A DNA stretch of 32,000 nucleotides from Burkholderiaceae bacterium (GTDB lineage: Bacteria > Pseudomonadota > Gammaproteobacteria > Burkholderiales > Burkholderiaceae_E), in contig JBIKXS010000020.1 in assembly GCA_044355655.1 (NCBI GenBank), positions 25,345-57,344 on the forward strand. The letters run 5' to 3'. Of this stretch, positions 8,965 through 32,000 are shown one piece after another. A program made the translations under genes and the position numbers. The notes beneath the pieces are model-generated. The model was not told where the DNA came from, did not search any database, and worked only from the letters and a program-made list of their open reading frames with translations. The stretch's first letter is position 1. The number at the start of each line of letters is the position of its first letter.

Positions 8965-9027
8965 TTTTTGGACGAACTCAGGTTTCGTTCTTTAGAGGCA
9001 TCACCTTATATTGTTCTAGGAAGCTTC

Positions 9028-9618
9028 ATGTCTCATTCAAAACCAATGGACCGCATGCCAGCACTTGCTGAGGATGAGATGAGTCCTCAGCAGCAGTATG
9101 CCTACGCCGCGCTCACGCAGGGGCCTCGAGGAAAGGTCGCAGGGCCCTTCGTGGCTTTGTTGCGCAGCCCGGAGTTGATGGATCGGTTGCAGCGCGTGGG
9201 TGAATACTTGCGTTTCAGCAACACGATTGGCCTGCGCTGCTCGGAATTTGCGGTTCTTGTCTGCTCGAGGCACTGGTCGCAGCCTGTTGAATGGGCGATT
9301 CACCGCCCGATCGCAGAGCGGGAGGGTGTGTCGCCGCAGACCTGCGATGCGATTCTTCAGGGGCGGCGTCCCCTGTCGATGTCTGATGACGAGTGTATTG
9401 TCTACGATGTACTCGATGAGCTTTATCGCTGCCGCAGCGTCAGTGATCTTACTTGGGCCCGCCTTGTTGATCGATGGGGCGATCAGGGCGCGATTGATTT
9501 ACTTGCCCATTACGGTTATTACAGTACCTTGGCTATTGTGATGAATGCCTGCCGCACCGCTGTACCCGAATCGCCTTTCTCTGAGCAAATGCGATCCTTG
9601 CCTGGCGCACCCGGGTGA
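9028..9618 (+). CDS. Carboxymuconolactone decarboxylase (CMD/AhpD-like) family protein
   Basis: Size and pattern (RSPELMDRLQRVGEYLRF...LRCSEFAVLVCSRHWSQPVEWAIH) fit CMD-family proteins. ATG 9028 is preferred over TTG 8968. Confidence 0.7.
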   Translation: MSHSKPMDRMPALAEDEMSPQQQYAYAALTQGPRGKVAGPFVALLRSPELMDRLQRVGEYLRFSNTIGLRCSEFAVLVCSRHWSQPVEWAIHRPIAEREGVSPQTCDAILQGRRPLSMSDDECIVYDVLDELYRCRSVSDLTWARLVDRWGDQGAIDLLAHYGYYSTLAIVMNACRTAVPESPFSEQMRSLPGAPG

Positions 9619-11244
9619 TTAAGTGATTGCAGCGTTTGACTGTCTTGCTGTAACGCTGGGATAAGGGCCATCACAAAGCTGGTATCGGGCAAGTAGCGCT
9701 GCAGTGACCGCTTTCCGACTGATTTTGCCTTGAGCGTTGCGGGGAAATTCTTCAAGCTCTAAAAACAATCTCGGCCGTTTATGCGCTGAGAGGACCAAAA
9801 CCCGCGACTGACAGTTCTCGATCCAATGCTGACTGAGCGTGTTTCCGCTGGCTCCAGGCGATCGCGCATCTTTCCATGCTTGATCGGGATTTTGGGGCCG
9901 TTCAGCGACAGCAACGATGATCTCACCCCAATATGTGGAGGGTAGCGAGGTGACAAGCATTTGTTGAACGCCGGGCAGGTCTGCCAGTACGCCTTCAATC
10001 TCATCCGGGTTGACCCGGTAGCCACCAGTCTTGATCACATCGGCCATGCGCCCCGACAAGAACAGTCTGCCGAACTCGTCGATAAAGCCAAGATCGCCCG
10101 TGGCATGCCAATCATCAGGCCCATGCAACATAAATCCATCGGCGGTAATCATGCCCACTGACATATGACTTGCCCGAATCCATATCTGATTAGGCGAATC
10201 GTCGCCTGAGCCATCTGATGCGACCTGATTAGCTTGTTGCGGCAAGCCGATCGCGATTTCAACACCTGGTGCGGCCCAACCGACGCAAGCCGCCCCTAGC
10301 TTGAGACCTTCAGCAAGTCCGGCTGCGGTGTCTGATGGAGGCAGGACGGTAATCGGGTTGACACATTCCGTCTTGCCATAGGTAATTCTGATGACATCAC
10401 CGAAAATCCTGCGCGCCTGCAAATAAAGACCTTCGTTGAGTGCCTGGGTACCAGTGAAAATACACTCGATGGTTTCAATGCGTTCCGACTCGAATGCGGC
10501 AACGAGTTTTGCCAGTACGGTGGGAGGCGCAAAAATCGCCTTGACGCGTCCTCTGGCAAGCACCGCGCGCAATGCCTTAAGCTCGACACCCTGTAGCAGA
10601 ACGACCTCGGCACCGTAGTCCATCCAGGCGGCGGCAAGCAGCCCAGCGCCATGCACGAAGGGCGTCATCAAGACAATTTGATCACCAGGCCTGGGCTTGA
10701 AGGGAAACTCACTTTTTTGCAGTAACTCCCCTTGCCAGCGCGATCGATGGTCATAGACCACCGCCTTGGGTTTTCCCGTGGTTCCTGAGGTAAACATTAA
10801 TCGGGCCCATACCGAGCCATCGACAGCTTCGATACGTTCAGGCAGGTCTTGACCCAGCAAATGCTCAATTGAGATAACCTGCCAACCGAGAGATTGAAGC
10901 CGCTCTGACTGGGCTGGTGTTGAAACAATGCTGTCAACCCCAGCCAACTGTTTACACCATTGAAGTTCTTCGTCGGTTTGACCCCAGCCGAGTGCAACCT
11001 CACAAAGCCCAGCGACTTTCATCCCATGACTAAGCCAGACTGCAGGCAGTATATTTGGCATAAGACTGGCCACGCGCTCGCCGTGACCAAACCCTTTCGC
11101 CTGAAAGTAGCCAGCAACCTGCAGCACATGGCTGTAAAGCGCTTGGAAACTGAGGCTATCACTCTGGCCATTACTCAATGCAATCGCATCCGGAAATCGG
11201 TTGCGTAGCGATAACCAGTGAGCGCTCCAGGCGATACGTTTCAT
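9619..11244 (-). CDS. AMP-binding (class I adenylate-forming) acyl/aryl-CoA ligase-like enzyme
   Basis: Motifs MFTSGTTGKPKAV, ITYGKTE, ATGDLG, IKTGGYRV and GKISRK. SD AAGGGGA lies 7 nt upstream of ATG 11244. Confidence 0.85.
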   Translation of the reverse strand: MKRIAWSAHWLSLRNRFPDAIALSNGQSDSLSFQALYSHVLQVAGYFQAKGFGHGERVASLMPNILPAVWLSHGMKVAGLCEVALGWGQTDEELQWCKQLAGVDSIVSTPAQSERLQSLGWQVISIEHLLGQDLPERIEAVDGSVWARLMFTSGTTGKPKAVVYDHRSRWQGELLQKSEFPFKPRPGDQIVLMTPFVHGAGLLAAAWMDYGAEVVLLQGVELKALRAVLARGRVKAIFAPPTVLAKLVAAFESERIETIECIFTGTQALNEGLYLQARRIFGDVIRITYGKTECVNPITVLPPSDTAAGLAEGLKLGAACVGWAAPGVEIAIGLPQQANQVASDGSGDDSPNQIWIRASHMSVGMITADGFMLHGPDDWHATGDLGFIDEFGRLFLSGRMADVIKTGGYRVNPDEIEGVLADLPGVQQMLVTSLPSTYWGEIIVAVAERPQNPDQAWKDARSPGASGNTLSQHWIENCQSRVLVLSAHKRPRLFLELEEFPRNAQGKISRKAVTAALLARYQLCDGPYPSVTARQSNAAIT

Positions 11245-20014: not shown

Positions 20015-20046
20015 AAAAAAAAGGCCCGAAGCGTTAACTTCGGGCC
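20015..20046 (-). terminator. Strong rho-independent terminator reading on the minus strand
   Basis: On the minus strand GGCCCGAAG-TTAACG-CTTCGGGCC (9-bp GC-rich stem) is followed by T8. Confidence 0.75.
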
Positions 20047-20106
20047 AAATCCACCTAAGGAGGAGGGTGGAGGAGACAGAGGCGGAAGCGCAACATCAAC
20101 TTCCAT
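20015..20106 (-). ncRNA. Candidate small RNA of about 90 nt (or an rplM leader/attenuator) ending at the terminator
   Basis: Possible sigma-70 promoter on the minus strand (TTGCAT at 20141..20136, 17-nt spacer, TAAATT at 20118..20113). The transcript would contain a CU-rich stretch (CCUCUGUCUCCUCCACCCUCCUCCUUAGGUGG). The overlapping 62-aa ORF has no SD and reads through the terminator. Confidence 0.25.
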
Positions 20107-22224: not shown

Positions 22225-23451
22225 ATGAAGAAATCGCTTCTCGCGATTGCAATCGCAGCTGCTTTACCGGCCGTCGCATCGGCCCAAGTGACTATTTCTG
22301 GCTACGCTAAAGGTAGCTTTGATAGTTTTTCGATTGGCGACAAAAACGCCGCTAGGCTTGGCAAAACCTCAGAGAATCGTGTAACCGACCATTCGTCACG
22401 CATGATTTTCAGCGCGAACGAGCAAATCGATAATGATCTTTCTGGTGTTTTCCAATTGGACTTGCGCTTTAATGTGGACCAAGTTGGACGCGCTGGTAAT
22501 GAAGGTGCGGCGGCAGAACCAGGAAAACATGTTGCAACACCTAGCGCGGTTGGAAACGTATTGAGCACTGGTAACAACCATGTCGGTATCGTCAGTAAGT
22601 CGATGGGTGCCCTGAGATTTGGGCGTTCAGACATTTACTACGGTAATACTGGCTCTGTATTGCCAAGTTCTACACACATCAACGCCTCTGCGCCTACTGT
22701 GATTCATAACCCAGGCGCAGCAATGGCCAACTGGTCGCGCACGCCAAACCTGATTTGGTACACCTCACCGACGGTCCAAGGATGGTCTGCGACTGCTGGC
22801 TATTCAACCAATCCACTGCGCGTGTCAGGTACTAACGAAACCGAAAACGACCTTAGCACGACTGCAGCGACTCGCAAGGGTAGCGGTACATTCTTCCAGG
22901 TCAATGGTACGGTTGGTCCGGTAGCATTAGCTTACGCTACCGTCAATCTCAAGTCTGACTACTTTGGCGGCACATGTACCCTTGCTAGCGGTAGCTGTAT
23001 TTATGAATGGACGAACAACCCCAACCCGAATCAAAAGGGTAATGTTGTTACAGCTATTTACCGTAGTGGTCCAATCGCTTTGGGAGCAGCTTACTCGGCT
23101 AACGAGACGTCAAGCAACACGAATATTAAGACTGAGCGTACGGCCTTCAACTTGAGTGCGGCCTACACGATGGGTAAGAATACCTTTGCACTTGAGCGTC
23201 AAACAGGCGGCGACCTTTCAAGGAACGGTGCTAAACAGGCCGAGACTGGATTAACCGGTACGGTACTCGCTTGGGACTACGCATTCTCCAAGCGCACGAA
23301 CGTGGGTGTTACACACTTTATCCTTGAGAACGATAAGAATTCTAACGTTGGCCCCTTCTATTCAACCAGCAACACCTTTGGTGGACAGTTTGGTGCACTG
23401 GCTGGTGAGAAGTACACGGTTACAGCGTTCGTAATGCGTCACACATGGTAA
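22225..23451 (+). CDS. Gram-negative general porin (Burkholderiales OmpC-like), intact copy with native promoter, SD and start
   Basis: Signal peptide MKKSLLAIAIAAALPAVASA|QVTISGY, alternating beta-strand pattern, aromatic C-terminus (FVMRHTW). SD AGGAGAG lies 7 nt upstream. Confidence 0.9.
   Translation: MKKSLLAIAIAAALPAVASAQVTISGYAKGSFDSFSIGDKNAARLGKTSENRVTDHSSRMIFSANEQIDNDLSGVFQLDLRFNVDQVGRAGNEGAAAEPGKHVATPSAVGNVLSTGNNHVGIVSKSMGALRFGRSDIYYGNTGSVLPSSTHINASAPTVIHNPGAAMANWSRTPNLIWYTSPTVQGWSATAGYSTNPLRVSGTNETENDLSTTAATRKGSGTFFQVNGTVGPVALAYATVNLKSDYFGGTCTLASGSCIYEWTNNPNPNQKGNVVTAIYRSGPIALGAAYSANETSSNTNIKTERTAFNLSAAYTMGKNTFALERQTGGDLSRNGAKQAETGLTGTVLAWDYAFSKRTNVGVTHFILENDKNSNVGPFYSTSNTFGGQFGALAGEKYTVTAFVMRHTW
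22232..22869 (+). repeat. Left copy of a long direct repeat (porin nt 8 onward); the extent is limited by the window end
   Basis: Identical to 31363..32000 (offset 9131) except 22815 A versus 31946 C, a synonymous Pro codon change. Confidence 0.97.
22243..22256. repeat. Perfect 14-bp palindrome GCGATTGCAATCGC, 11 bp inside the repeat boundary (second copy at 31374..31387)
   Basis: Read directly. It lies in the signal-peptide coding region (LAIAIA). Confidence 0.9.
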
Positions 23452-23480
23452 TTTAGAACGTCGTTGGTTCTATAAGCCGG

Positions 23481-23509
23481 GGCCCGTCGAAAGACGGGCC
23501 TTTTCGTTT
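23481..23509 (+). terminator. Rho-independent terminator of the porin gene
   Basis: GGCCCGTC-GAAA-GACGGGCC followed by TTTTCGTTT. Confidence 0.8.
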
Positions 23510-23574
23510 GTATGTCCAGGCAACGGACTCAACAATCCAAGCAAATAGCGCAGTTGGGTATAGCTTGACCATCT

Positions 23575-24867
23575 GTGTCAAGCGAAGCAAGTAACGATGC
23601 TGTATTCAGGGCCAAGCGCTCAAGGTCATGCCCACTGCGGTTGACGTTTTGTCGGATCGAGGGTCAAGCGGCCTCGCTGACCTTATACCGTATCGAAGCG
23701 AGCAGCTTTTGGCAGTGCCGTTTCTTTCACGCTGGAAAGATGCTCACGAAAAGTACGCGGACTGCGCAACTTGATGAGGCCAAGCGATTCGCGCTTGCTT
23801 TTCACCACAGCAAAGTACACCAAACAACGAGCGAACTCATGGCCGATGCAATGCCAGGCCCAGTGCGCTTTGGTGAGTTAGCGAAACAGCTCATGCGTCA
23901 CGAGGCAACCCGCAAAGATCGGGGCGAGTTTGCCGAGCTCTCTTATCGTGCTGATCAGATTCGCCTTGCAACAGAAATTATTCCCTTCTTTGGGCCAATG
24001 CCAGTGAAGGCAATTACCGCGCAGCATGTGGAGTCTTTTTACTTCAAACTCACTTCGCGCGCCCTATCGAGCACGACCTTATCGCTCTACTTGATGACGC
24101 TTAGAAAAGTGCTCAAGTACGCACGCACCTTGAGCATCATTGAGACCTTGCCAACGATGCCTTCGGTCAAGATCAAGAAGCGTTCGAGGGGAAGTTTTAC
24201 ACCGACTGAGTACGTGACGCTCATACGAAGCGCGCGACAAGTGGTTGGAAGCACGGTGCTTGACGCAACCGAGGTGATTCCAAAACGATTCTGGATCATC
24301 CCGAAATATAGACGCTACCCACAAGATTTAGCCTACGTCATCGCCTTTATGGTGAACAGTTTCATCAGACCAAGCGATCTGAAGACGCTTCGTCATCGAC
24401 ACGTTGAAGTGGTGCGAGGCCCGCACAATTACCTTCGACTGACTTTGCCAGAGACCAAAGCGCATGATGCACCGATTGTCACGCTCAGACCCGCTGTGCG
24501 CTTGTATGAACGTTTGCTCAAGCAACAACAGTGTCAAGGTTTTGGAAGACCCGATGACTTCTTGTTTTTGCCTCTCGAACAGAATCGAAACTATGGCTTG
24601 GCTGTGTTGGGCTGGATGTTCCGACACTTACTTGACAAGTTAGGGTTACGAAATGGCCCACACGGGCACCCTAGAACGCTCTACTCACTGCGACACACAG
24701 CGATCACGCTTCGTTTGCTCTATGGCACAGGTATCGACATGTTGACACTCGCAAGAAATGCGAGAACTAGCGTCGAGATGATCGAGCGACACTACGCTAG
24801 TGCGCTTACTGCTGAGCGAAACATCGGTATGTTGCAGAGCAAACGCGGCCCAAGGCAACGAAACTAA
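23575..24867 (+). CDS. Tyrosine-type site-specific integrase (full length, with N-terminal DNA-binding part)
   Basis: C-terminal catalytic region with FIRPSDL (Arg I), LYSLRHTAITLRLL (His/Arg II) and MIERHYAS (nucleophile Tyr). The start is uncertain (GTG 23575 is the longest ORF). Confidence 0.88.
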   Translation: MSSEASNDAVFRAKRSRSCPLRLTFCRIEGQAASLTLYRIEASSFWQCRFFHAGKMLTKSTRTAQLDEAKRFALAFHHSKVHQTTSELMADAMPGPVRFGELAKQLMRHEATRKDRGEFAELSYRADQIRLATEIIPFFGPMPVKAITAQHVESFYFKLTSRALSSTTLSLYLMTLRKVLKYARTLSIIETLPTMPSVKIKKRSRGSFTPTEYVTLIRSARQVVGSTVLDATEVIPKRFWIIPKYRRYPQDLAYVIAFMVNSFIRPSDLKTLRHRHVEVVRGPHNYLRLTLPETKAHDAPIVTLRPAVRLYERLLKQQQCQGFGRPDDFLFLPLEQNRNYGLAVLGWMFRHLLDKLGLRNGPHGHPRTLYSLRHTAITLRLLYGTGIDMLTLARNARTSVEMIERHYASALTAERNIGMLQSKRGPRQRN

Positions 24868-24871
24868 ACGC

Positions 24872-24897
24872 AAGCGTCCCAAAACGAGACGCTCAGC
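24872..24897. repeat. IR-L: left copy of a perfect 26-bp inverted repeat (AAGCGTCCCAAAACGAGACGCTCAGC)
   Basis: It is the exact reverse complement of 28954..28979. It contains its own 6-bp stem, AGCGTC-N9-GACGCT. Confidence 0.95.
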
Positions 24898-24903
24898 ACG
24901 TTA

Positions 24904-25365
24904 TCAATGTGGTTTTGCCCTAAACCGTGCCTTCAATTGATCAGAAGCAGCTTGAATCAACAGATCTAACTCCCCAGCATCAAGCGCAATGAGTATGCGC
25001 TCAAGCATCGGAATCAACGCCGCGACGGAGTCAAGCTCAAGCGCTGTCTTACCTTTTTGAAACTCTAGGGCCTTAGACCCATACTTGATTTCAAGGCCGA
25101 TTTTTCCATGCTCAGAAGTAAACCACCAGCAGCGAAGCCTTATGCGGTGTTCCGTCTCGCGTTGTTCCCCAGAGATGCGATCGGTCACGAGGCGACGACG
25201 TATGGTATGAAGTGGGTGTCCGTCTAGCTGCGCTTGAGCGAGCTCAATTTGCTGTTTGAGTCTTTTCCTAAGTTTCGCGCGACGAAACTCGATGGGTGTT
25301 GGGGGCGTAGCTCGCTTTGGCGCGAACCACTTGAGGCCTTGCAAGATGGTCATTGATTGATTCAT
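24904..25365 (-). CDS. Hypothetical protein (153 aa), island cargo
   Basis: A long ORF with plausible composition and no catalytic motif recognised. Its pattern (basic N-terminus, RLRCWWF...GKIGLEIKYGSKALEFQKGK...AGELD) recalls conserved island-associated hypothetical proteins, but I cannot name a family with certainty. Confidence 0.55.
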   Translation of the reverse strand: MNQSMTILQGLKWFAPKRATPPTPIEFRRAKLRKRLKQQIELAQAQLDGHPLHTIRRRLVTDRISGEQRETEHRIRLRCWWFTSEHGKIGLEIKYGSKALEFQKGKTALELDSVAALIPMLERILIALDAGELDLLIQAASDQLKARFRAKPH

Positions 25366-25479
25366 TATAAAGAACGATAAGCGATTATCTCTTTACAATG
25401 ATTTGGTTTTTGCTGGAACGGCTCGCAAAACAATTGGTTATTTTGTACTTTTATTTGGTATGGCATAAATAAATGCATC

Positions 25480-26037
25480 ATGACAAACGTTCATCAATCT
25501 ACTGGCATTGTGCAAACACACGACAGTCTGCTACAGCAAGCGTTGAATCAGTGGCTCGCGATGCACCATGGGGCGTTTACGCATGCAGCGACATTTACAT
25601 TTAACGAGCGACGAGTATGGAGGTTCATCGGAGCCAGCACTCAGTTTATAACTCCGCATGATGAGGGCATGATCGCGCTCTTGCGAAAGACGATGCGTTT
25701 GTTTCAGCGTCGGCTTGAGCGTTCGCTTTATGGGAACGCAGCTAAGCGCTATGGACAACGTTTGCTTTTTATTCCAATGCTGGAGGGACTTCGTTGTGGC
25801 GAGTTTCCACACTATCACGCAGCGTTGGGGGTTGACGAGGCTCGAACTGCATCGCTCGCAACGAAGATCAAGCGTGCGTGGACTTCGTTACCATTTGCAG
25901 GACATCACATTGAGCTAGTACCTTACAGGGATCAAGGGTGGCTCAGCTACAGCACGAAAGCTGCGTATCGAGTCAATCAGCACTCGATTGATTGGGAAAG
26001 CGTGAGCGTTCCACTTCGATCCCCAATCCCTTGCTGA
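25480..26037 (+). CDS. Small HUH-motif Rep-like protein (inovirus Gp2 / YfjJ-YagK-like rolling-circle initiator or relaxase-like nuclease)
   Basis: Three motifs in the canonical order: AATFTF (aa 36-41, motif I like FLTLTY), FPHYHAALGV (H111-Y-H113, the HUH motif) and LSYSTKAAY (aa 155-163, YxxK-type Tyr motif). Confidence 0.6.
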   Translation: MTNVHQSTGIVQTHDSLLQQALNQWLAMHHGAFTHAATFTFNERRVWRFIGASTQFITPHDEGMIALLRKTMRLFQRRLERSLYGNAAKRYGQRLLFIPMLEGLRCGEFPHYHAALGVDEARTASLATKIKRAWTSLPFAGHHIELVPYRDQGWLSYSTKAAYRVNQHSIDWESVSVPLRSPIPC

Positions 26038-26415
26038 GCAAAGCTCCTTGGGGTTGCGCATGAAAAGCGTGATCGCTTTATTTGTCTCACCACGTCCATA
26101 GCAATCTATGCGTTCAGATGAACGAACATCAAGCGCAACCTTAGCGACAGATCGTTGATTGTCGATCTGCTTTCAGCGAGATAGGTTATTCGATATGCAT
26201 CGTATACCGTTATCGGATGCAACAGCATCAGTTTTTTAAAAAAACTCGCAGGCATTGAGCCAGATATAAACCAATACAAAGAACACAAAGCATTGGTCTT
26301 CGCTTAAGTTATTGATCTATATAGTATTGTATTTTATACCGATCACGGTTGCCCTTTCAGACCAAAGGGTTCATCATAAATACATACAAACTCGTTGGTA
26401 TTGAAAGGAGAACAG

Positions 26416-27021
26416 ATGGCACAGGCTCGAGTTTTAACAGACAGAGATGTGGGCCGCGTGTTGCGTTATATCGCAAATCACAAACACGCATCTCGCAACA
26501 GAGCGATGTTTTTGCTCACGACGCAAACGGGTATGCGTATTGGCGAGGTCGCGGCGTTACGTCTATCGCAAGTGCTGACAAAAGACGGCAAGATCAGAGA
26601 TGAGATTCGGCTCGCACCAGATCAGACCAAAGGGGGTCGAGGTCGCTTGGTGATCTTGTCAGAAAAGGCGCAGCACGAGATTCATCACTACTTGTCGGTG
26701 AGATTTCGGCTCAAGGACTTGTTTCCCTTGACGATGACAGATACGAATCGAGCGCTCTTTTGTACGCAGAAAAATCCAGATCGAGGCTTCAGTGCGTCGA
26801 CGCTATCGCAGCACTTTCACTACATGTATCGGCGCGCGGGCATCGATGGGGCAAGTAGCCATAGTGGGCGTCGTAGCTTCATTACCCATCTAGCGGAGAA
26901 GGGCGTATCGGTGCGGGTGTTGATGGAGCTCGCTGGACATCGCAGCTTAGCTGTGACGCAGCGCTATATCGAGACAAATCCCTCAATGCTCAGACGAGCA
27001 GTCGAGTTGCTCAGAATCTAG
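26416..27021 (+). CDS. Small (201 aa) tyrosine recombinase, essentially catalytic domain only (FimB/FimE-like size)
   Basis: Motifs GMRIGEV (Arg I), TKGGRGR (Lys), HSGRRSF (His/Arg II), LAGHRSLAVTQRY (His and Tyr). AAGGAG lies 6 nt upstream of ATG 26416. Confidence 0.85.
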   Translation: MAQARVLTDRDVGRVLRYIANHKHASRNRAMFLLTTQTGMRIGEVAALRLSQVLTKDGKIRDEIRLAPDQTKGGRGRLVILSEKAQHEIHHYLSVRFRLKDLFPLTMTDTNRALFCTQKNPDRGFSASTLSQHFHYMYRRAGIDGASSHSGRRSFITHLAEKGVSVRVLMELAGHRSLAVTQRYIETNPSMLRRAVELLRI

Positions 27022-27037
27022 GGGCTAGATTCTGAGC
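27009..27037. terminator. Perfect 13-bp stem / 3-nt GGG loop hairpin between convergent genes (terminator or protein-binding site)
   Basis: GCTCAGAATCTAG-GGG-CTAGATTCTGAGC. It overlaps the recombinase stop codon and has no T-run. Confidence 0.4.
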
Positions 27038-27100
27038 ATGGGCTTCGTGGTGTGTGGGTTGCGGCGAAGCTTGGCTTTGCCAATTGAGGCTTAGACTAGG

Positions 27101-27880
27101 TCATGCAGCAACTTGCGCTGAGTATTCATTCTCTGCTTGAGGGCCTGCAAAATTAACGACTTCTTGCTTAAGCATCGCTGATTCTTCTTTGGCAATCGTT
27201 ATCTGCTTTGCTGCTGACTTCACCAAACCGTCATAAACGGTGTCACTTAAGTGTGGTACCACGCAGATGATGTCAAATCCACCTTGATCGTTAGGTTCTG
27301 CGATGAGCACAGAGCGACTCTCTGGCTTAATGCCACTAAGCGTGACTTGAGCAAGTGGGACGCTACGACGAGCTTCGATCTCTTGGGTCAAGGCGCAGAC
27401 TTCATGAGCAATGCGCTGACGCTTTGCTTGTGTCTCTTCGCTTAGCGTGATCAGCTTACATGCCCCATCAATACCACCAACGCTGTCAAGCCACTGAGGC
27501 AGATCGGCTGCTGCAATGGCGTGGGATTTAGCAGCTTCGATGACATAGCGATAGCGCATGACACGCTTACGGTCGCTCTTAAAGACATAGCGAATGAGGA
27601 TACCGAGCGTGGTTGAGGTCTTCTGGGTACGGATCCCATCGTTGAGGAGTTTTTCAATTAAAGCAGCGCGGAATGCCTTTCGTAAGCTGTCTTCTGTCAT
27701 CACAAAATGATCCTCGTAAGCAGCGTAGGTTTTGCTCAAGAGACTGTAGAGGGCTTGGGTCGCTGAGCGATAAACACTCGACTCCCAATCGGCGCGTTCG
27801 TCGCTCAGCACATTGAGTTTGCTCAACACGACGGTCGTTTGAGCTTCGAAGTTGGTTTCGGGGGTGATTGATGTGGTCAT
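27101..27880 (-). CDS. Hypothetical protein (259 aa), island cargo
   Basis: A long ORF with no recognisable motif. It is divergent from 28003..28884. Confidence 0.55.
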   Translation of the reverse strand: MTTSITPETNFEAQTTVVLSKLNVLSDERADWESSVYRSATQALYSLLSKTYAAYEDHFVMTEDSLRKAFRAALIEKLLNDGIRTQKTSTTLGILIRYVFKSDRKRVMRYRYVIEAAKSHAIAAADLPQWLDSVGGIDGACKLITLSEETQAKRQRIAHEVCALTQEIEARRSVPLAQVTLSGIKPESRSVLIAEPNDQGGFDIICVVPHLSDTVYDGLVKSAAKQITIAKEESAMLKQEVVNFAGPQAENEYSAQVAA

Positions 27881-27911
27881 TTGAATCTCCTTGGGTAGTT
27901 CAGCGTTCGTC

Positions 27912-27924
27912 AGACACCGTGTCT
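27912..27924. promoter_or_regulatory. 13-bp palindrome AGACAC-C-GTGTCT in the divergent promoter region
   Basis: Read directly. It is located between the starts at 27880 (-) and 28003 (+). Confidence 0.3.
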
Positions 27925-28002
27925 TTCGCTTTGCTGATGGGATCCATTTAACCAGTCGTTACCATATACTGTCCTCACTACGTTTTCAGTTGATAACACT
28001 AT

Positions 28003-28884
28003 ATGAATCGCGTTTTCCCCAACCTCTCGAAGCATTTCTATGAAGAGCAAAAGGCAGAGATCGCAGCTGCCAGGCGCAGCCCCTATTACATGTGGTGGAT
28101 GTGTCTCGCGTTAAGTCGAGAGTACTGGCGGTTATGTCAAGTCGAGGGAAAGACGGGTGATCCTCAGTTCGCAAGGGTCTATGAGCACTTTGGGGATGTC
28201 TTTCACGATGAATTTGATGATTGGTGGCTCGAGCACGGCAAGGCTGCCTTCGCTTACAAGATCAGACCCCCAGTGGTGCGCTACTTGACTCCGACAGACA
28301 GTCGCGAATTCTCAAATCATGGCCACTTAAAGCATGCAAAGCTTGTCGTCGTACCAGACCACTATTCAAAGTCAGAGCTTGTGAGACAGTTCAAAAGGCT
28401 TTTGGTCGACTATGCACCAAGCGCACTACCTGCTCGATTCGCAAGTCCGTTTGAAGTCGCAAGTCTACGCGGCATGAAGCGCAGCATGTTGAGAGATGTC
28501 TTAAGGGTCAGAGTAGCGAGCGATGCTTTACAAATCGTTAAGACCAAGCAATTGATCGCGCACCCAGAAAAGTACGGCGCTGCGTGGATTGGGCGCATCG
28601 CGAATATTTCACCTCGAAAAAGCGCTAATAAGTTGCGCACAAAGGACACTGATCGCAATGAGCGCTTAGCGCTAAGGGTCAAGGTGGCACGCTATCAGCT
28701 GAAGGCCTCTCGACTCATAGCTAACGCGGAGATTGGCGTTTTCCCCAACATAGCACCAACAACAGAAAATCCTAAGCGCTGGACAAAGGCGCAGCTTGCA
28801 CGGTTCGCAAAACTTGAGGCCCAAGAACCCTTCATCAGTCCAGTTGTTCAATACACGCAATATCTAAAATTGATCACGGGCTAG
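28003..28884 (+). CDS. Hypothetical protein (293 aa), island cargo
   Basis: A long ORF with a Trp/Tyr-rich N-terminal part (SPYYMWWMCLALSREYWRLC) and a basic C-terminal half. No motif was recognised and the SD is weak. Confidence 0.5.
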   Translation: MNRVFPNLSKHFYEEQKAEIAAARRSPYYMWWMCLALSREYWRLCQVEGKTGDPQFARVYEHFGDVFHDEFDDWWLEHGKAAFAYKIRPPVVRYLTPTDSREFSNHGHLKHAKLVVVPDHYSKSELVRQFKRLLVDYAPSALPARFASPFEVASLRGMKRSMLRDVLRVRVASDALQIVKTKQLIAHPEKYGAAWIGRIANISPRKSANKLRTKDTDRNERLALRVKVARYQLKASRLIANAEIGVFPNIAPTTENPKRWTKAQLARFAKLEAQEPFISPVVQYTQYLKLITG

Positions 28885-28953
28885 ACACTGCGATGGGTCG
28901 AGGGTACACGCTCGCATACTTAATCTTGGCGCTTTGAGCGATCGGTGTTGAAC

Positions 28954-28979
28954 GCTGAGCGTCTCGTTTTGGGACGCTT
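28954..28979. repeat. IR-R: right copy of the perfect 26-bp inverted repeat
   Basis: GCTGAGCGTCTCGTTTTGGGACGCTT is the reverse complement of 24872..24897. Confidence 0.95.
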
Positions 28980-29340
28980 AGGGGTGGTGATTGCACGGTC
29001 TCCGATTGTGCGGTGCTTTCAAAAAAAGGAAGCTCGACAAAAAATAAAAAAATTAAGGTTCTGATTGATCGAGCAAAAAAAGAGACTAACCTACGTCTAT
29101 AAAAAAAATGCAACGAGCTGGTACGAATTCAAATCGAGGTTGCTTGCTTCATGAAGAGAGGGCTTTTCAAGCCCCTCTGTGAACTCGCTTGCGCTATCGC
29201 GCTGCGCTCATTCACAGCTTTTCTTCACAATAAGTTAAGCACATGAGTCATCGGGATGGGGTTAACGAAGGAATTACTATAAGTGTGTGACTTTTTGAAG
29301 GTCAAAGCGCTTCGGTTTGATCCGTAGCGAGGGGTACCAG

Positions 29341-30804
29341 ATGCTAAGACTCGAAGTGGATCCAGCGGTCCTTAAGGCGTTAAAGACGGCATTTCCAAAA
29401 CCCTCGGGTGCGGCGCTGAAGGCATTGCGGAAATACGTGAGTGCGTTGAACGATCTACTCACCGAGGCAATTCGTCTGGGGAACGACCCTTATGGCGCTC
29501 GGTTTCACTTATTTAGTATCAGTCTGCATCAACTCGCGAACCGAGGGGGGCAGATTGGACCTAAGCGCATTCGTACGCATGCGTGGTTGAAGGAAAACGG
29601 GTTAGCGCTCGTTCAAGCAATCGAATTGGGCAGCAATCTGAGTGGTCAGAAGTCACGCGTTCGTCTAACAAGGCTTGTCACGCTGGTCGACGAGCTGAGC
29701 TTGGCTTCGGTGCAGATAAAGCACAGTGCGAATGTGAAGGGCTTTCTTGATCATCCGAGCGAGAGCGAAGTGGCATGGATTCGTCAGATTTATCCAGCGC
29801 TAGACCAACTCGATGAGGTCGCGGTCAATGCGCAGTATCACATCACTGACATCGATCTTGAGTCGTTGGGACGATTCATCATCTGGATCGCAGAAAAGGC
29901 ACGTCATATTCCTAAGTCAAGAAGGGATATGATTTTTCGGCAAGCGGTCTTGATCTACCGCGTTGCCAAGTTTAGTGATGGAATCTTTCTGCAAAAGATC
30001 AAACGTAGTCACTTTGGTCGAACGTACTATGAAGGCATCAGCGTTCAAAACGTGCACCGAACGCTACGTCAAGCGATGCTCGGTGACAGTTGGGAGTACG
30101 ACATCGTTTCATCGGTTGTTGCTTGGAAGCTAGGCTTTGGCGAGCGGTTTCGCCAAGTGATGCTCAAAAGCCAGTCGGTAGCTGAGATCTTTCCCACGAT
30201 GCTTATCTATCTGCAAGATAAAGATGATCTGATTAAGACGATACGTGCTGATACATATTTAAGGGATAGCGAGGTGGATGCGATCGGTCAGCGCAAGCAA
30301 GTGAAGTCAGCACTGACTGCGCTTTGCTTTGGCGCGAGGGTTGGTGCCAGTGGGTGGCATGACGACGCGGGCATGTGGAAAGTCCCCGCGATTGGAAGCA
30401 TCTTCAAAGATGTCAGTGAACGCAAGCGTTTTGTGATGAGTCGTAGCACCAAAGCATTCATCAATGAGCAAAGGAAGCTCGACCAATTCATCTTCGATTT
30501 GCACTTGGCTTCAAATCGATCACTCAAATGCGACCCTCGGCTTCAGACCGAAAGCGGACGAGTGAGTCGCGCTAAAGTGCTCGCATACCTTTATCAACAC
30601 GCTGAGACAGCGGCCATGGATATCGTTCGTCGCGAGTTAGCACAAGTTAACAACACGGTGCTTGCGAATATCCACGATGCGATCATCGTTCGAGAAAAAC
30701 TCTCGCTCGATGTTCGAAACGTGATCGAGGATTCGATGAGGCGAGAGACGGGTAATGTTTTCTGGAGAGTTAGCCAAAAGCAAATTAAGCGCTTTGAGAG
30801 CTAG
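29341..30804 (+). CDS. Divergent family-A (Pol I / T7-like) nucleic-acid polymerase domain protein with no exonuclease domains
   Basis: Numbering follows the 495-aa track ORF. FGRTYYEGISVQNV matches TGRLSSxxPNLQNIP; RTLRQAM matches RxIRxAF; motif A is D262. Motif B is R326-x3-K330-x7-F338-G339, the same spacing as RxxxKxxxxxxxYG. ETAAMDIV matches QGTAADII, and motif C is NIHD454AIIV. ATG 29341 has GAGGGG 6 nt upstream and is preferred over TTG 29317. Confidence 0.6.
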   Translation: MLRLEVDPAVLKALKTAFPKPSGAALKALRKYVSALNDLLTEAIRLGNDPYGARFHLFSISLHQLANRGGQIGPKRIRTHAWLKENGLALVQAIELGSNLSGQKSRVRLTRLVTLVDELSLASVQIKHSANVKGFLDHPSESEVAWIRQIYPALDQLDEVAVNAQYHITDIDLESLGRFIIWIAEKARHIPKSRRDMIFRQAVLIYRVAKFSDGIFLQKIKRSHFGRTYYEGISVQNVHRTLRQAMLGDSWEYDIVSSVVAWKLGFGERFRQVMLKSQSVAEIFPTMLIYLQDKDDLIKTIRADTYLRDSEVDAIGQRKQVKSALTALCFGARVGASGWHDDAGMWKVPAIGSIFKDVSERKRFVMSRSTKAFINEQRKLDQFIFDLHLASNRSLKCDPRLQTESGRVSRAKVLAYLYQHAETAAMDIVRRELAQVNNTVLANIHDAIIVREKLSLDVRNVIEDSMRRETGNVFWRVSQKQIKRFES

Positions 30805-30836
30805 AGCGCTTAGCTTATTGGACTAAATAAAGTGAT

Positions 30837-31187
30837 ATGCGCTTTACAGAATTCAAGCACCCACTTCAACCATTTATCGGTACCGTTCGAGTGGCCTCTG
30901 GCGCTGGTCAGATGCTTACGAAATTGGTTTTATGGAGTGATGGTCATCAACAAGCGCGAGCTTTGTTTGCACGCTTGTTTGGTGTAGGAAACATCATTGC
31001 TGTTGCTCAATTGATGAATGAGTCAGCGACGCAAATGCTCAAAAGCCCAGCGGAGCTCCAAGTCAAAGCAATGAGCGATCAAGCGAAACAGCTTAAGACC
31101 CGTGCTAAAACGATTAGGGCAAAGCGTGCACTCGATAAAGCAAAGCAATCACTTCAACAAGCTACAAGCAATAGCATAACGAGCTAA
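30837..31187 (+). CDS. Hypothetical protein (116 aa) with a Lys/Ala/Gln-rich, probably helical C-terminus
   Basis: ORF only; no motif recognised. Confidence 0.4.
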   Translation: MRFTEFKHPLQPFIGTVRVASGAGQMLTKLVLWSDGHQQARALFARLFGVGNIIAVAQLMNESATQMLKSPAELQVKAMSDQAKQLKTRAKTIRAKRALDKAKQSLQQATSNSITS

Positions 31188-31362
31188 TTATCATATCGTA
31201 TGGGATACGATACTTTATCGCGATAGGGCAACTCTTTTGAGAAGCATCGTTTGTAAACGAGTAGTCTAAAAGTATAAACGTTATACCATTAAACATGAGG
31301 ATTTTGGGCGCTTAAGCCATTGTTTTCGCGTAGGCAATTTCGTCGGATTTGCACTCTTGACG

Positions 31363-32000
31363 AATCGCTTCTCGCGATTGCAATCGCAGCTGCTTTACCG
31401 GCCGTCGCATCGGCCCAAGTGACTATTTCTGGCTACGCTAAAGGTAGCTTTGATAGTTTTTCGATTGGCGACAAAAACGCCGCTAGGCTTGGCAAAACCT
31501 CAGAGAATCGTGTAACCGACCATTCGTCACGCATGATTTTCAGCGCGAACGAGCAAATCGATAATGATCTTTCTGGTGTTTTCCAATTGGACTTGCGCTT
31601 TAATGTGGACCAAGTTGGACGCGCTGGTAATGAAGGTGCGGCGGCAGAACCAGGAAAACATGTTGCAACACCTAGCGCGGTTGGAAACGTATTGAGCACT
31701 GGTAACAACCATGTCGGTATCGTCAGTAAGTCGATGGGTGCCCTGAGATTTGGGCGTTCAGACATTTACTACGGTAATACTGGCTCTGTATTGCCAAGTT
31801 CTACACACATCAACGCCTCTGCGCCTACTGTGATTCATAACCCAGGCGCAGCAATGGCCAACTGGTCGCGCACGCCAAACCTGATTTGGTACACCTCACC
31901 GACGGTCCAAGGATGGTCTGCGACTGCTGGCTATTCAACCAATCCCCTGCGCGTGTCAGGTACTAACGAAACCGAAAACGACCTTAGCACGACTGCAGCG
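31363..32000 (+). repeat. Right copy of the long direct repeat (porin nt 8 onward), running off the window
   Basis: See 22232..22869. Confidence 0.97.
31363..32000 (+). pseudogene. Displaced second porin copy lacking the native promoter, SD and first 7 nt (ATGAAGA); 3' end outside the window
   Basis: Homology to the intact porin starts at codon 3, and the upstream DNA is island sequence. It may still be expressed from an alternative in-frame TTG at 31320, so the pseudogene status is provisional. Confidence 0.5.

What the first reader, a model, noticed from the sequence alone, without database searches (positions are those of the whole stretch)
29341..30804. Stand-alone, highly divergent family-A polymerase domain encoded in a small integrative island
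The roughly 490-aa product carries, in the correct order, every landmark I know from the Pol I/T7 polymerase superfamily. FGRTYYEGISVQNV corresponds to TGRLSSxDPNLQNIP, and RTLRQAM to R(R)IRQAF. A motif-A Asp is present (D262 in EYDIVSS). Motif B is R326-KQV-K330-SALTALC-F338-G339, with exactly the RxxxKxxxxxxxYG spacing. ETAAMDIV corresponds to QGTAADII, and motif C is NIH-D454-AIIV (VHDE in Pol I). The K330 to D454 distance is 124 residues, the same as K758 to D882 in the Klenow fragment. There is no 5'-3' or 3'-5' exonuclease domain and no DEDD motif in the roughly 225 N-terminal residues. Several residues deviate from DNA-polymerase consensus. Val replaces the steric-gate Glu five residues after the motif-A Asp (if my alignment is right), HDA replaces HDE, and FG replaces YG. 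The substrate (dNTP or NTP) and the template are therefore open questions. The gene sits with an HUH Rep-like gene and two tyrosine recombinases. That fits a self-replicating integrative element (Rep nicks, the element's own polymerase extends), a minimal single-subunit RNA polymerase or primase, or a nucleic-acid-synthesising effector. I know of PolB-bearing elements (casposons, pipolins) but no characterised class of small integrative islands carrying such a minimal PolA-like enzyme. Novelty has to be checked against databases.
Basis: partly seen in the sequence, partly recalled or inferred. Interest (0 to 1): 0.88.

Follow-up and report, generated by a model that had tools for sequence, protein, structure and literature searches.

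The report
Minimal TV-Pol polymerase in integrative element
The gene encodes a stripped-down relative of DNA polymerase I with no proofreading domain; it belongs to the "TV-Pol" group first predicted in 2008 and is a core gene of small integrating mobile elements in freshwater Burkholderiales, so it is real and probably active, but it is not a new kind of system.

Summary
The ORF is real: 29341-30804 (+), 487 aa from the ATG. No Pfam, NCBIfam, PADLOC or PDB-sequence search recognises it. An AlphaFold model (pLDDT 87) matches only family-A DNA polymerases in the PDB (top 50 hits, prob 1.0). Its best viral matches after same-sized uncharacterised phage proteins are virophage primase-helicase proteins that carry the TV-Pol domain.

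The proposed catalytic residues are essentially invariant in 162 diverse homologues: R227, R243, D254, K322, F330-G331 and H445-D446.

The gene is the most widely shared gene in 87 compared loci. It travels with DUF6641, a ~200-aa tyrosine recombinase, a large integrase and several unknown ORFs. In the window the mobile unit is 9,131 bp (22232-31362). It includes a porin gene body and is bounded by a repeat that starts in the porin signal-peptide codons.

This matches the TV-Pol family (Iyer et al. 2008). One member, SCCmec CcPol, is a proven primase when paired with its partner MP. So the fold, the missing exonuclease and the integrative setting are supported. The "no known class" claim and the Rep-nicks/polymerase-extends model are not, because the Rep-like ORF occurs in none of the 86 more distant loci.

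Best explanation: a primase-polymerase serving the element's own DNA synthesis. That function is inferred, not shown.

The parts
29341..30804 (+). TV-Pol-type minimal family-A polymerase gene (487 aa). It has an N-terminal extra domain (about aa 1-170), a two-helix thumb (aa 173-211), a beta-hairpin carrying R227, the palm and the fingers.
   Evidence: ORF. AF2 model with pLDDT 87.2 and pTM 0.74. Foldseek against PDB and against BFVD. Conservation. A GAGGGG Shine-Dalgarno-like sequence sits 7 nt before the ATG.
30019..30021 (+). R227 codon: the invariant Arg of the beta-hairpin (FGRTYY), which aligns with Pol I R668.
   Evidence: 162/162. hhalign places G226-R227 on G667-R668. AF2 strands 215-222 and 228-231.
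30100..30102 (+). D254 codon: the presumed motif-A catalytic Asp (YD at the end of palm strand 250-255).
   Evidence: 161/162. Strand and helix boundaries. hhalign shifted this stretch by 5 residues, so the equivalence to D705 rests on invariance and secondary structure.
30304..30333 (+). Motif B / O-helix: K322 ... T326 ... F330-G331.
   Evidence: K322 161/162, T326 140/162, F330 160/162 and G331 162/162. Helix 314-329 ends just before F330. That favours K322 = K758 and F330-G331 = Y766-G767 over the hhalign register, which puts F330-G331 on F762-G763.
30673..30678 (+). H445-D446 codons: motif C (IHDA).
   Evidence: H 161/161 and D 160/161. The stretch aligns with T7 RNAP H811-D812. It lies between strands 440-444 and 447-450.
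30837..31187 (+). 116-aa ORF directly downstream of the polymerase. It is the last gene before the right junction.
   Evidence: The same position is occupied in close relatives L112-L116. It falls in a cluster found in 16 loci. No family match.
28003..28884 (+). 293-aa conserved element ORF (cluster c4), transcribed divergently from c6.
   Evidence: Found in 36 of 87 loci (28 by tblastn). No Pfam or PHROG match.
27101..27880 (-). 259-aa conserved element ORF (cluster c6).
   Evidence: Found in 28 of 87 loci. No significant family match.
26395..27021 (+). Small tyrosine recombinase (208 aa, catalytic domain only).
   Evidence: Pfam Phage_integrase 2.6e-29 and phrog_216 1.8e-43. Weak hits to Xer recombinases and tyrosine-type DNA invertases. 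Present in 50-51 related loci.
25480..26037 (+). Its identity is unverified and it is not part of the conserved module.
   Evidence: Pfam REP_ORF2-G2P at E = 0.093, below threshold. Zero of the 86 more distant loci carry it. A 185-aa ORF occupies the same position in the 99%-identical relative L112. No PDB, plasmid or phage hits.
24904..25365 (-). DUF6641 protein (153 aa), the gene most tightly linked to the polymerase across the family.
   Evidence: Pfam DUF6641 1.2e-9. Present in 55-58 loci, usually directly downstream of the polymerase. AF2 model pLDDT 75. No significant PDB fold match.
23575..24867 (+). Large tyrosine integrase (430 aa) next to the porin body.
   Evidence: phrog_1 integrase 4.6e-23. 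SAM-like N-terminal domain hits. The cluster occurs in 25 loci.
22232..23451 (+). Porin gene body (the ORF is 22225-23451). It lies inside the repeated mobile unit and is read from the chromosomal promoter and ATG.
   Evidence: Pfam Porin_4 1.6e-23. Repeat and junction analysis.
22232..22869 (+). Left copy of the direct repeat, whose 5' end is the presumed att core.
   Evidence: Identical to 31363-32000 with 1 mismatch in 638 nt, at an offset of 9131 bp. The junction sequence is conserved in L112, L114, L115 and L116.
31363..32000 (+). Right copy of the direct repeat: a porin 5' region lacking the ATG and RBS. It runs off the end of the window.
28885..29340 (+). 455-nt A/T-rich intergenic region with hairpins upstream of the polymerase gene. 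It could be a promoter or an origin; this was not tested.
   Evidence: Sequence read. No Rfam hit.

Best explanation
The gene encodes an active TV-Pol-type polymerase. It has the minimal family-A catalytic core (two-helix thumb, Arg-bearing beta-hairpin, palm with two catalytic Asp, O-helix Lys) plus an extra ~170-aa N-terminal domain, and it has no exonuclease.

It is a core gene of a family of small integrative elements in freshwater Burkholderiales. The other shared genes are DUF6641, a catalytic-domain-only tyrosine recombinase, a large integrase and several unknown ORFs. In this window the element is a 9.1-kb unit inserted in the signal-peptide-coding start of a porin gene.

The most likely role is DNA synthesis for the element itself. 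After excision as a circle, the polymerase would prime and/or extend DNA on the element, as a primase-polymerase, possibly helped by its N-terminal domain or by DUF6641. The small recombinase could resolve multimers.

Shown here: the fold, the conserved active site, the lack of a nuclease, the linkage to the element core, and the integrative nature of the element. Inferred: primase activity, substrate, partner proteins and episomal replication.
For: - Fold. The AF2 model has pLDDT 87. All of the top 50 PDB hits are family-A DNA polymerases. In BFVD, the virophage V13-type 'primase/helicase/polymerase' proteins score E 5e-10 to 1e-7 and rank above canonical phage PolA. Sputnik V13 and OLV25 carry the TVpol domain (PMC3671162).
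- Active site. The catalytic residues are invariant in 162 homologues.
- No nuclease. No acidic column is conserved in aa 1-210.
- Family size. 817 clusters at 50% identity, nearly all 450-650 aa.
- Linkage. DUF6641 occurs in 55-58 loci, the small integrase in 50-51, c4 in 36 and the large integrase in 25. A resolvase is adjacent in L004-L006.
- Integrative nature. There is a 9131-bp repeat unit with conserved junctions. L037 is flanked by a 54-nt tRNA 3'-end repeat.
- Literature. TV-Pol is defined with exactly these four structural features, the N-terminal-domain subset and the integrase/resolvase context, and is predicted to be a prim-pol (PMC2579912). CcPol-MP is a demonstrated dNTP-using primase (PMC7581432).
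Against: - No experiment exists for any TV-Pol that has the N-terminal domain (quotes this; two searches found none).
- The sequence link to a founding TV-Pol is weak. hhalign E = 0.006 against Ma-LMM01 MAP_030, and I identified that gene as Iyer's phage member only by its motifs and transposase neighbours.
- The Arg of the family's RxxxK motif is not conserved.
- No helicase, SSB or origin is recognisable in the element core.
- DUF6641 gave no OB-fold or any other significant structural match.
- I found no evidence of an episomal form. L027 is a chromosomal fragment, and there are no hits in 72,556 plasmids.
- The neighbours in viral contigs are tail-fibre-like genes, not replication genes.
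Confidence: 0.6

Rival explanations
1. It is a repair, gap-filling or error-prone DNA polymerase. It would extend existing 3' ends, for example during integration or excision repair or for mutagenesis, and would not replicate the element.
For: CcPol alone only extends primers. The closest solved structures are repair-type Pol I enzymes. No helicase or origin is recognisable. divPolA2, another exonuclease-less phage PolA, was suggested to act in repair (PMC11348598).
Against: Tyrosine-recombinase integration needs no DNA synthesis (established knowledge). The gene is the most widely shared gene in the compared loci rather than variable cargo. The hosts already have Pol I.
Confidence: 0.15
2. 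It uses ribonucleotides, acting as a minimal single-subunit RNA polymerase or an RNA primase for the element.
For: Val or Ala replaces the steric-gate Glu if D254 = D705, Thr replaces F762, and Phe replaces Y766. The motif A/B/C strings resemble T7 RNAP (FDGSCSG, K...YG, HDS). hhalign aligns motif C with T7 RNAP at E = 0.085.
Against: None of the top 50 PDB matches is an RNA polymerase. No Pfam RNA_pol signal exists in 46 members. The characterised relative CcPol-MP uses dNTPs only for priming. The steric-gate assignment depends on an alignment register that hhalign did not reproduce.
Confidence: 0.1
3. It is a nucleic-acid-synthesising effector, for example in anti-phage defence or in satellite-helper interference, carried by the island.
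For: Cargo between the small integrase and the polymerase varies from element to element. Distant relatives sit in phage contigs next to tail-fibre genes. The element manipulates an outer-membrane porin, a typical phage receptor.
Against: No PADLOC hit for the polymerase or any neighbour. The polymerase belongs to the invariant core, not the variable cargo. No sensor or toxin partner is evident.
Confidence: 0.08
4. This is the reader's model: an HUH Rep nicks the element and the element's own polymerase extends from the nick, giving rolling-circle replication.
For: A 185-aa ORF with an H-Y-H string and a sub-threshold REP_ORF2-G2P hit lies in the island. It is kept at the same position in the 99%-identical relative L112.
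Against: The ORF has no homologue in any of the 86 more distant loci and no PDB, plasmid or phage match. The Pfam E-value is 0.093 against a 27.8-bit cut-off.
Confidence: 0.04

Closest known systems
TV-Pol family (Iyer, Abhiman & Aravind 2008, Biol Direct 3:39), the subset with the N-terminal TV-PolN domain
   Same: - A minimal family-A core with a two-helix thumb, a beta-hairpin with an invariant Arg, two palm Asp and a fingers Lys.
- No fused or linked nuclease.
- Size of 400-600 aa, with an extra N-terminal domain.
- Located in bacterial mobile elements next to a lambda-type integrase or a gamma-delta resolvase.
- A Thauera protein is in the founding list, and a Thauera MAG carries a member of this family (L071).
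   Different: - The Arg of RxxxK and the fingers Asp are not conserved here.
- The sequence link to the one founding member I could fetch is weak (E = 0.006).
- The N-terminal domain has a small beta-meander and is not purely helical.
- The partner genes (DUF6641, DUF6876, c4, c6) and the porin target were not described.
CcPol-MP primase of SCCmec (Bebel et al. 2020 eLife; Rice 2023 Front Mol Biosci)
   Same: An exonuclease-less family-A polymerase encoded by an integrative element next to site-specific recombinases. It is the only TV-Pol member with biochemistry, acting as a primase together with a small partner.
   Different: CcPol lacks the N-terminal TV-Pol domain. It needs the OB-fold protein MP, sits in an operon with the Cch helicase, keeps the ribonucleotide-discriminating residues, uses serine recombinases and occurs in Bacillota. 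Here no helicase or OB-fold partner is recognisable, Val and Thr occupy those positions, and the recombinases are tyrosine type.
Virophage / polinton-like virus TVpol-S3H primase-helicases (Sputnik V13, OLV25, Zamilon)
   Same: These are the best structural matches after the same-sized uncharacterised phage proteins: E 5e-10 to 1e-7, rmsd 4-7 A over about 330-365 columns.
   Different: Those proteins are fused to a superfamily-3 helicase and are eukaryotic-virus genes. This protein stands alone, with a different N-terminal domain.
Klenow-type Pol I polymerase domain (Aquifex, M. smegmatis, Taq, Bst; apicoplast apPOL)
   Same: Same fold. The TGRLSS...LQN, IRQAF, motif A Asp, O-helix Lys and HD(E) landmarks align.
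   Different: Only 11-15% identity and TM about 0.38. No Pfam DNA_pol_A hit. No exonuclease domains. Val for the steric-gate Glu, FG for YG, and HDA for HDE.
divPolA2 of barbaviruses and Vibrio phages (Virol J 2024, PMC11348598)
   Same: A divergent phage PolA with an active palm, an unknown N-terminal globular domain and no 3' exonuclease, found in variable gene neighbourhoods.
   Different: No significant sequence relationship. There is only a local motif-C match at E = 0.02, and its motif C reads FDE rather than HDA.

Membership tests
TV-Pol (Iyer et al. 2008) | Minimal family-A catalytic core with no fused or linked nuclease domain | tested here: met
   Family-A fold. No conserved acidic column in aa 1-210. 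No nuclease among the conserved neighbours.
TV-Pol (Iyer et al. 2008) | Thumb built from two antiparallel helices, directly N-terminal to the beta-hairpin | tested here: met
   The AF2 secondary structure has helices 173-185 and 192-211 followed by strands 215-222 and 228-231. I could not inspect coordinates, so the antiparallel packing is assumed.
TV-Pol (Iyer et al. 2008) | [quoted passage not shown] | tested here: met
   R227 is 162/162 and aligns with Pol I R668.
TV-Pol (Iyer et al. 2008) | Two highly conserved Asp in the RRM-like palm | tested here: met
   D254 is 161/162 and D446 is 160/161.
TV-Pol (Iyer et al. 2008) | Fingers with a conserved Asp and an RxxxK motif | tested here: inconclusive
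   K322 is 161/162, but the residue four positions before it is variable (R in only 18 of 162). D293 and D296 are only partly conserved.
TV-Pol (Iyer et al. 2008) | Recovered by sequence or profile searches from founding members | tested here: inconclusive
   The 162-sequence profile against Ma-LMM01 MAP_030 gives hhalign E = 0.006 with all motifs in register. The HMM alone finds nothing. Foldseek links the model to virophage TVpol proteins at E about 1e-9. The founding alignment is not available.
TV-Pol (Iyer et al. 2008) | TV-PolN N-terminal domain in the transposon-associated subset | not testable with these tools
   An extra N-terminal domain of about 170 aa exists, but no TV-PolN reference sequence or model could be obtained.
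TV-Pol (Iyer et al. 2008) | Neighbourhood with a lambda-type integrase, gamma-delta resolvase or transposase in a mobile element | tested here: met
   Two tyrosine recombinases in the window. The small integrase occurs in 50 loci and the large one in 25. A resolvase is adjacent in L004-L006.
Family-A DNA polymerase (Pfam DNA_pol_A / Pol I type) | Match to the curated sequence model PF00476 | tested here: not met
   No hit for the window protein or for any of 46 members at E <= 1. No PDB sequence hit with the single sequence or the profile.
Family-A DNA polymerase (Pfam DNA_pol_A / Pol I type) | Palm/fingers/thumb fold of Klenow type | tested here: met
   84 PDB matches at E <= 1e-3, and the top 50 are all family-A DNA polymerases.
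Family-A DNA polymerase (Pfam DNA_pol_A / Pol I type) | Steric-gate Glu (E710), motif-B Phe/Tyr (F762) and Tyr (Y766), and motif-C HDE | tested here: not met
   The corresponding positions hold V259 (V116/A34), T326, F330 and H-D-A447. The register for E710 and F762 is inferred, and hhalign gave a different one.
PolA-SSB primase (CcPol-MP type, Rice 2023) | Adjacent small OB-fold ssDNA-binding partner | tested here: inconclusive
   DUF6641 is the linked small protein. Its model (pLDDT 75) has a five-strand beta unit, but no significant PDB match. The best E is 0.5, and the ribosomal protein S17 hits score only E 1.4-4.8.
PolA-SSB primase (CcPol-MP type, Rice 2023) | Same operon as a helicase (Cch / D5-like) | tested here: not met
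   No helicase domain appears in the window island or in the conserved clusters.
T7-like single-subunit RNA polymerase | Pfam RNA_pol match or RNA polymerases as closest structures | tested here: not met
   No Pfam hit. No RNA polymerase among the top 50 PDB matches. Only a short motif-C alignment at E = 0.085.
Integrative mobile element | Integrase plus flanking direct repeats (att) in varied chromosomal contexts | tested here: met
   In the window, the 22232.. and 31363.. repeats have junctions conserved in relatives. L037 has a 54-nt tRNA 3'-end repeat. Flanking genes differ between loci.

The most novel reading that the evidence does not exclude
The N-terminal-domain TV-Pols could be self-sufficient primase-polymerases that need no helicase or OB-fold partner. 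They would replicate a previously unrecognised class of ~9-15-kb integrative elements in freshwater Burkholderiales. Some of these elements would integrate into the signal-peptide-coding start of an outer-membrane porin gene. The element-borne porin allele would then be expressed from the resident promoter while the resident allele is silenced, making the element a self-replicating swapper of surface receptors.
Probability: 0.25. Interest if true: 0.75.

Novelty: new member of a known kind. Interest (0 to 1): 0.5.

Why it matters
[quoted passage not shown] Only one member, CcPol, has been studied biochemically, and it lacks the N-terminal domain and needs a partner.

This subfamily is large: at least 817 clusters at 50% identity. 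It is confidently modelled and has an intact active site. It is invisible to Pfam, NCBIfam and PADLOC, and it is not covered by the A-family section of the 2026 census of bacterial DNA polymerases. It would therefore be a good system for asking how a family-A enzyme primes de novo and how it chooses its sugar.

The element around it, built from DUF6641, DUF6876 and other unknown core genes with an attachment site inside a porin signal sequence, is an uncharacterised mobile-element family in ecologically dominant freshwater bacteria.

Tried and rejected
- Direct family searches (Pfam, NCBIfam, PADLOC) and PDB sequence searches with the single protein and with the profile all found nothing. PHROGs gave only one weak hit for the polymerase (phrog_4756, E = 0.007, unknown function).
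- tblastn of the polymerase against 50,697 phage records and 72,556 plasmid records found nothing.
- DUF6641 as an MP-like OB-fold partner: I modelled it from a 40-sequence alignment, but Foldseek against the PDB gave nothing significant. This stays unresolved.
- Ma-LMM01 as a founding TV-Pol reference: the A1 HMM found nothing. Only the extended profile gave a weak, in-register hhalign match.
- The supplement of Iyer et al. with the founding alignment is not held.
- divPolA2 as the closest described relative: rejected.
- L027, a 10.4-kb separate contig, as an episomal form: rejected. It carries a host peptidase-like gene and has no terminal overlap.
- Viral-contig neighbours as a clue to a replication role: uninformative.
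- The Rep-like ORF has no support beyond a sub-threshold Pfam hit.
- Rfam and tandem-repeat scans of the island found nothing inside the island.
- The 2026 census groups PolA1, PolA2 and PolA3 all have exonuclease domains and do not fit.
Full report
**Observation.** The window holds an ORF from 29317 (TTG) or 29341 (ATG) to 30804 on the + strand. Homologues begin at the position of the ATG, and a GAGGGG sequence sits 7 nt upstream. Every quoted motif is present. The K322 to D446 spacing is 124 residues, the same as K758 to D882 in E. coli Pol I, whose sequence I read from the K-12 genome.

**Direct searches.** Pfam, NCBIfam, PADLOC and PDB-sequence searches recognise nothing in this protein. 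PHROGs gives only one weak hit to a family of unknown function. None of 46 family members reaches Pfam DNA_pol_A or RNA_pol, even at E <= 1. A profile of the family also finds no PDB sequence.

**Family.** A word-indexed search found more than 560 full-length relatives, all labelled hypothetical and without Pfam domains. An exhaustive HMM search found 817 clusters at 50% identity, 348 of them below 1e-30, mostly 450-650 aa.

**Fold.** An AlphaFold2 model built from a 46-sequence alignment is confident (pLDDT 87.2, pTM 0.74). Foldseek against the PDB returned 84 matches at E <= 1e-3. The top 50 are all family-A DNA polymerases: Aquifex and M. smegmatis Pol I, the apicoplast polymerase, Taq, Bst and T7 DNA polymerase. 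Probability is 1.0 and E goes down to 1.7e-7. Identity is only 11-15% and TM about 0.38.

Against predicted viral structures, the best matches are uncharacterised phage proteins of the same size (E 4.5e-28, TM 0.70). Next come virophage and giant-virus 'primase/helicase/polymerase' proteins such as the Zamilon and Qinghai Lake virophage proteins, which rank ahead of ordinary phage PolA. Sputnik V13 and OLV25 carry the N-terminal TVpol domain (PMC3671162).

**Conservation.** I built a 162-sequence alignment that includes the most divergent representatives and five viral relatives at 23-30% identity. The counts are:
- R227 162/162 and R243 162/162
- D254 161/162
- K322 161/162
- F330 160/162 and G331 162/162
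- Q419 159/161 and E422 160/161
- H445 161/161 and D446 160/161

No acidic column is conserved in residues 1-210, so there is no DEDD exonuclease site.

**Residue mapping.** Profile-to-sequence alignments are only weakly significant but fall in register. With E. coli Pol I (E = 0.005-0.01), G226-R227 aligns with G667-R668, Q236-N237 with Q677-N678, and R243 with the Arg of IRQAF. The IHDA stretch aligns with T7 RNAP H811-D812.

Two registers remain ambiguous:
- hhalign shifts motif A by five residues. The equivalence D254 = D705 rests on invariance and on D254 ending palm strand 250-255.
- hhalign puts F330-G331 on F762-G763.

That reasoning draws on my knowledge of the Klenow E710 and T7 RNAP Y639 studies, not on a test made here.

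**Context.** Window positions 1-22 kb are betaproteobacterial housekeeping genes: tyrS, an M23 peptidase, anmK, erpA, rpsI, rplM, OsmC and COQ7.

A scan of species-representative genomes found 98 loci. Nearly all are in freshwater Burkholderiales (Limnohabitans, Polynucleobacter, Comamonadaceae, Oxalobacteraceae). A Thauera MAG also carries one, and some genomes have several copies.

I clustered all ORFs across 87 loci. The conserved core is:
- the polymerase, in 80 loci
- DUF6641, in 55, usually directly downstream of the polymerase
- a ~200-aa tyrosine recombinase with only the catalytic domain, in 50
- DUF6876, in 42
- the 293-aa ORF, in 36
- a Pro-rich 176-aa ORF, in 33
- the 259-aa ORF, in 28
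- a large integrase, in 25

The window carries a compact, rearranged version of this set. The core contains no recognisable helicase, SSB or primase. It has no homologue in any of the 86 more distant loci and no PDB, plasmid or phage match. It is kept only in the 99%-identical relative L112.

**Borders of the element.** Close relatives showed a porin gene directly after the polymerase and the 116-aa ORF. In the window, 22232-22869 is identical to 31363-32000 (1 mismatch in 638 nt, running to the window's end), at an offset of 9,131 bp.

The identity begins at codon 3 of the porin gene at 22225-23451. The right-hand copy has no ATG or RBS. The same right junction (CACTCTTGACG|AATCGCTTCTCGCGATTGC) is found in relatives with 99% and with 65% polymerase identity. 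In the 65% relative (L116), the repeat is only about 66-90 nt (the signal-peptide codons) and the porin body is different.

I infer that the attachment core lies in the porin signal-peptide-coding region. The mobile unit would then be 22232-31362 and would include a porin body read from the chromosomal promoter. The identical right-hand copy is either a second tandem unit or the same allele; the window ends too soon to tell.

A related element, L037, is about 9.5 kb and is flanked by a 54-nt repeat that is the 3' end of a tRNA gene. These are therefore genuine integrative elements with different targets.

**Comparison with what is known.** Iyer, Abhiman & Aravind (2008) defined the TV-Pol family (PMC2579912). 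Its members are 400-600-aa minimal family-A polymerases with a two-helix thumb, a beta-hairpin carrying an invariant Arg, two palm Asp, and fingers with RxxxK. They are never linked to nucleases. One subset has an extra N-terminal domain and sits next to gamma-delta resolvases, lambda-type integrases or transposases in bacterial mobile elements. The authors predicted that these enzymes are primase-polymerases of 'replicative transposons'.

The protein here meets the thumb, hairpin-Arg, two-Asp, no-nuclease and context criteria. The RxxxK Arg is not conserved.

The only founding member I could fetch is Microcystis phage Ma-LMM01 MAP_030. I identified it by its motifs and by its neighbouring IS605-type transposases. 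It aligns in register, but only at E = 0.006.

CcPol of SCCmec is a TV-Pol without the N-terminal domain. It is the single biochemically studied member. With the OB-fold protein MP it primes DNA synthesis using dNTPs, and alone it only extends primers. No other TV-Pol had been characterised (PMC7581432, PMC10061031).

I tested whether DUF6641 could play the role of MP. Its model (pLDDT 75) has a long helix, five beta strands and two more helices, but no significant structural match. The 2024 'divPolA2' of phages is not detectably related. The A-family section of the 2026 census of bacterial DNA polymerases describes only groups with exonuclease domains. No paper in the library mentions DUF6641 or DUF6876.

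**Mechanism.** Shown:
- a family-A fold with an intact, strongly conserved active site
- no nuclease domain
- membership of the conserved core of an integrative element

Inferred, with overall confidence of about 0.6: the enzyme synthesises DNA for the element after excision, by priming and/or extension. The N-terminal domain or DUF6641 may stand in for the ssDNA-binding partner, and the small recombinase may resolve multimers.

Weaknesses:
- no helicase or origin is recognised
- I found no episomal form
- the viral neighbourhoods are uninformative

Rivals, in order:
1. a primer-extending repair or gap-filling polymerase
2. an NTP-using primase or RNA polymerase
3. a defence-type effector

**Verdict.** This is a new, uncharacterised subfamily within a kind first predicted in 2008, embedded in an undescribed family of mobile elements. 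Interest is moderate, at 0.5.

Noticed in passing
window 22232-22869 and 31363-32000 (unit 22232-31362): A direct repeat of at least 638 nt (1 mismatch) at an offset of 9,131 bp brackets the porin body plus the whole element. It starts at codon 3 of the porin gene, and the right copy lacks the ATG and RBS. The junctions are conserved in relatives (L112, L114, L115, L116). This suggests an att core in the porin signal-peptide codons, with the element-borne porin allele expressed from the resident promoter.
   Followed up: partly
window 24872-24897 and 28954-28979: A perfect 26-nt inverted repeat (AAGCGTCCCAAAACGAGACGCTCAGC) occurs only twice in the window, where 0 are expected, and in none of 110 other loci. 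Each arm is itself a hairpin just 3' of a gene. The arms bracket the 4.1-kb segment that holds DUF6641, the Rep-like ORF, the small recombinase and the c6/c4 pair. It could be a shared terminator or the ends of an invertible segment. The small recombinase weakly matches tyrosine-type DNA invertases.
   Followed up: partly
window 20016-20078 (-): An Rfam match to 'Betaproteobacteria toxic small RNA' (RF02278, 71.8 bits, E = 8e-13) lies upstream of rplM-rpsI. It is consistent with a betaproteobacterial host.
   Followed up: no
L075 (Limnohabitans parvus II-B4, NZ_NESN01000005.1) 1-21461: Three successive related units, each with DUF6641 next to a large integrase, form a tandem array. Only one unit carries the polymerase. 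The units are 78-86% identical over about 2 kb. DUF6641 therefore also travels with the large integrase when the polymerase is absent.
   Followed up: no
L037 4094-4147 and 13624-13677: A 54-nt direct repeat (96% identical) is the 3' end of a tRNA gene. It flanks a ~9.5-kb element with the same core genes (DUF6641, small integrase, c4, c6, polymerase, large integrase). This is a classic tRNA att site for another member of the family.
   Followed up: yes
L001 17446-21303; L002; L023: In the typical Limnohabitans-type elements, the large integrase lies next to a TonB-dependent receptor (Plug) gene. The arrangement is the same as porin and integrase in the window, which hints that outer-membrane protein genes are a recurrent neighbour or target. 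I found no flanking repeat within the 21-kb loci.
   Followed up: partly
window 25480-26037 (+): A 185-aa ORF contains an H-Y-H string and has a sub-threshold Pfam REP_ORF2-G2P hit (E = 0.093). It is kept in the 99%-identical relative L112 but is absent from all 86 more distant loci, and it has no PDB, phage or plasmid match.
   Followed up: yes
L090 (IMGVR_UViG_3300044644_001125, 327-kb viral contig) 7998-9779; L088, L089, L091, L092: Distant relatives of the polymerase (23-30% identity, all motifs kept) occur in IMG/VR viral contigs, one of them 327 kb long. Their neighbours are collagen-repeat and tail-fibre-like proteins and AraC-type HTH proteins, not replication genes.
   Followed up: partly
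window 28885-29340: A 455-nt A/T-rich intergenic region with two GC-rich hairpins lies upstream of the polymerase gene. It could be a promoter or an origin. It has no Rfam match, and I did not compare it across loci.
   Followed up: no
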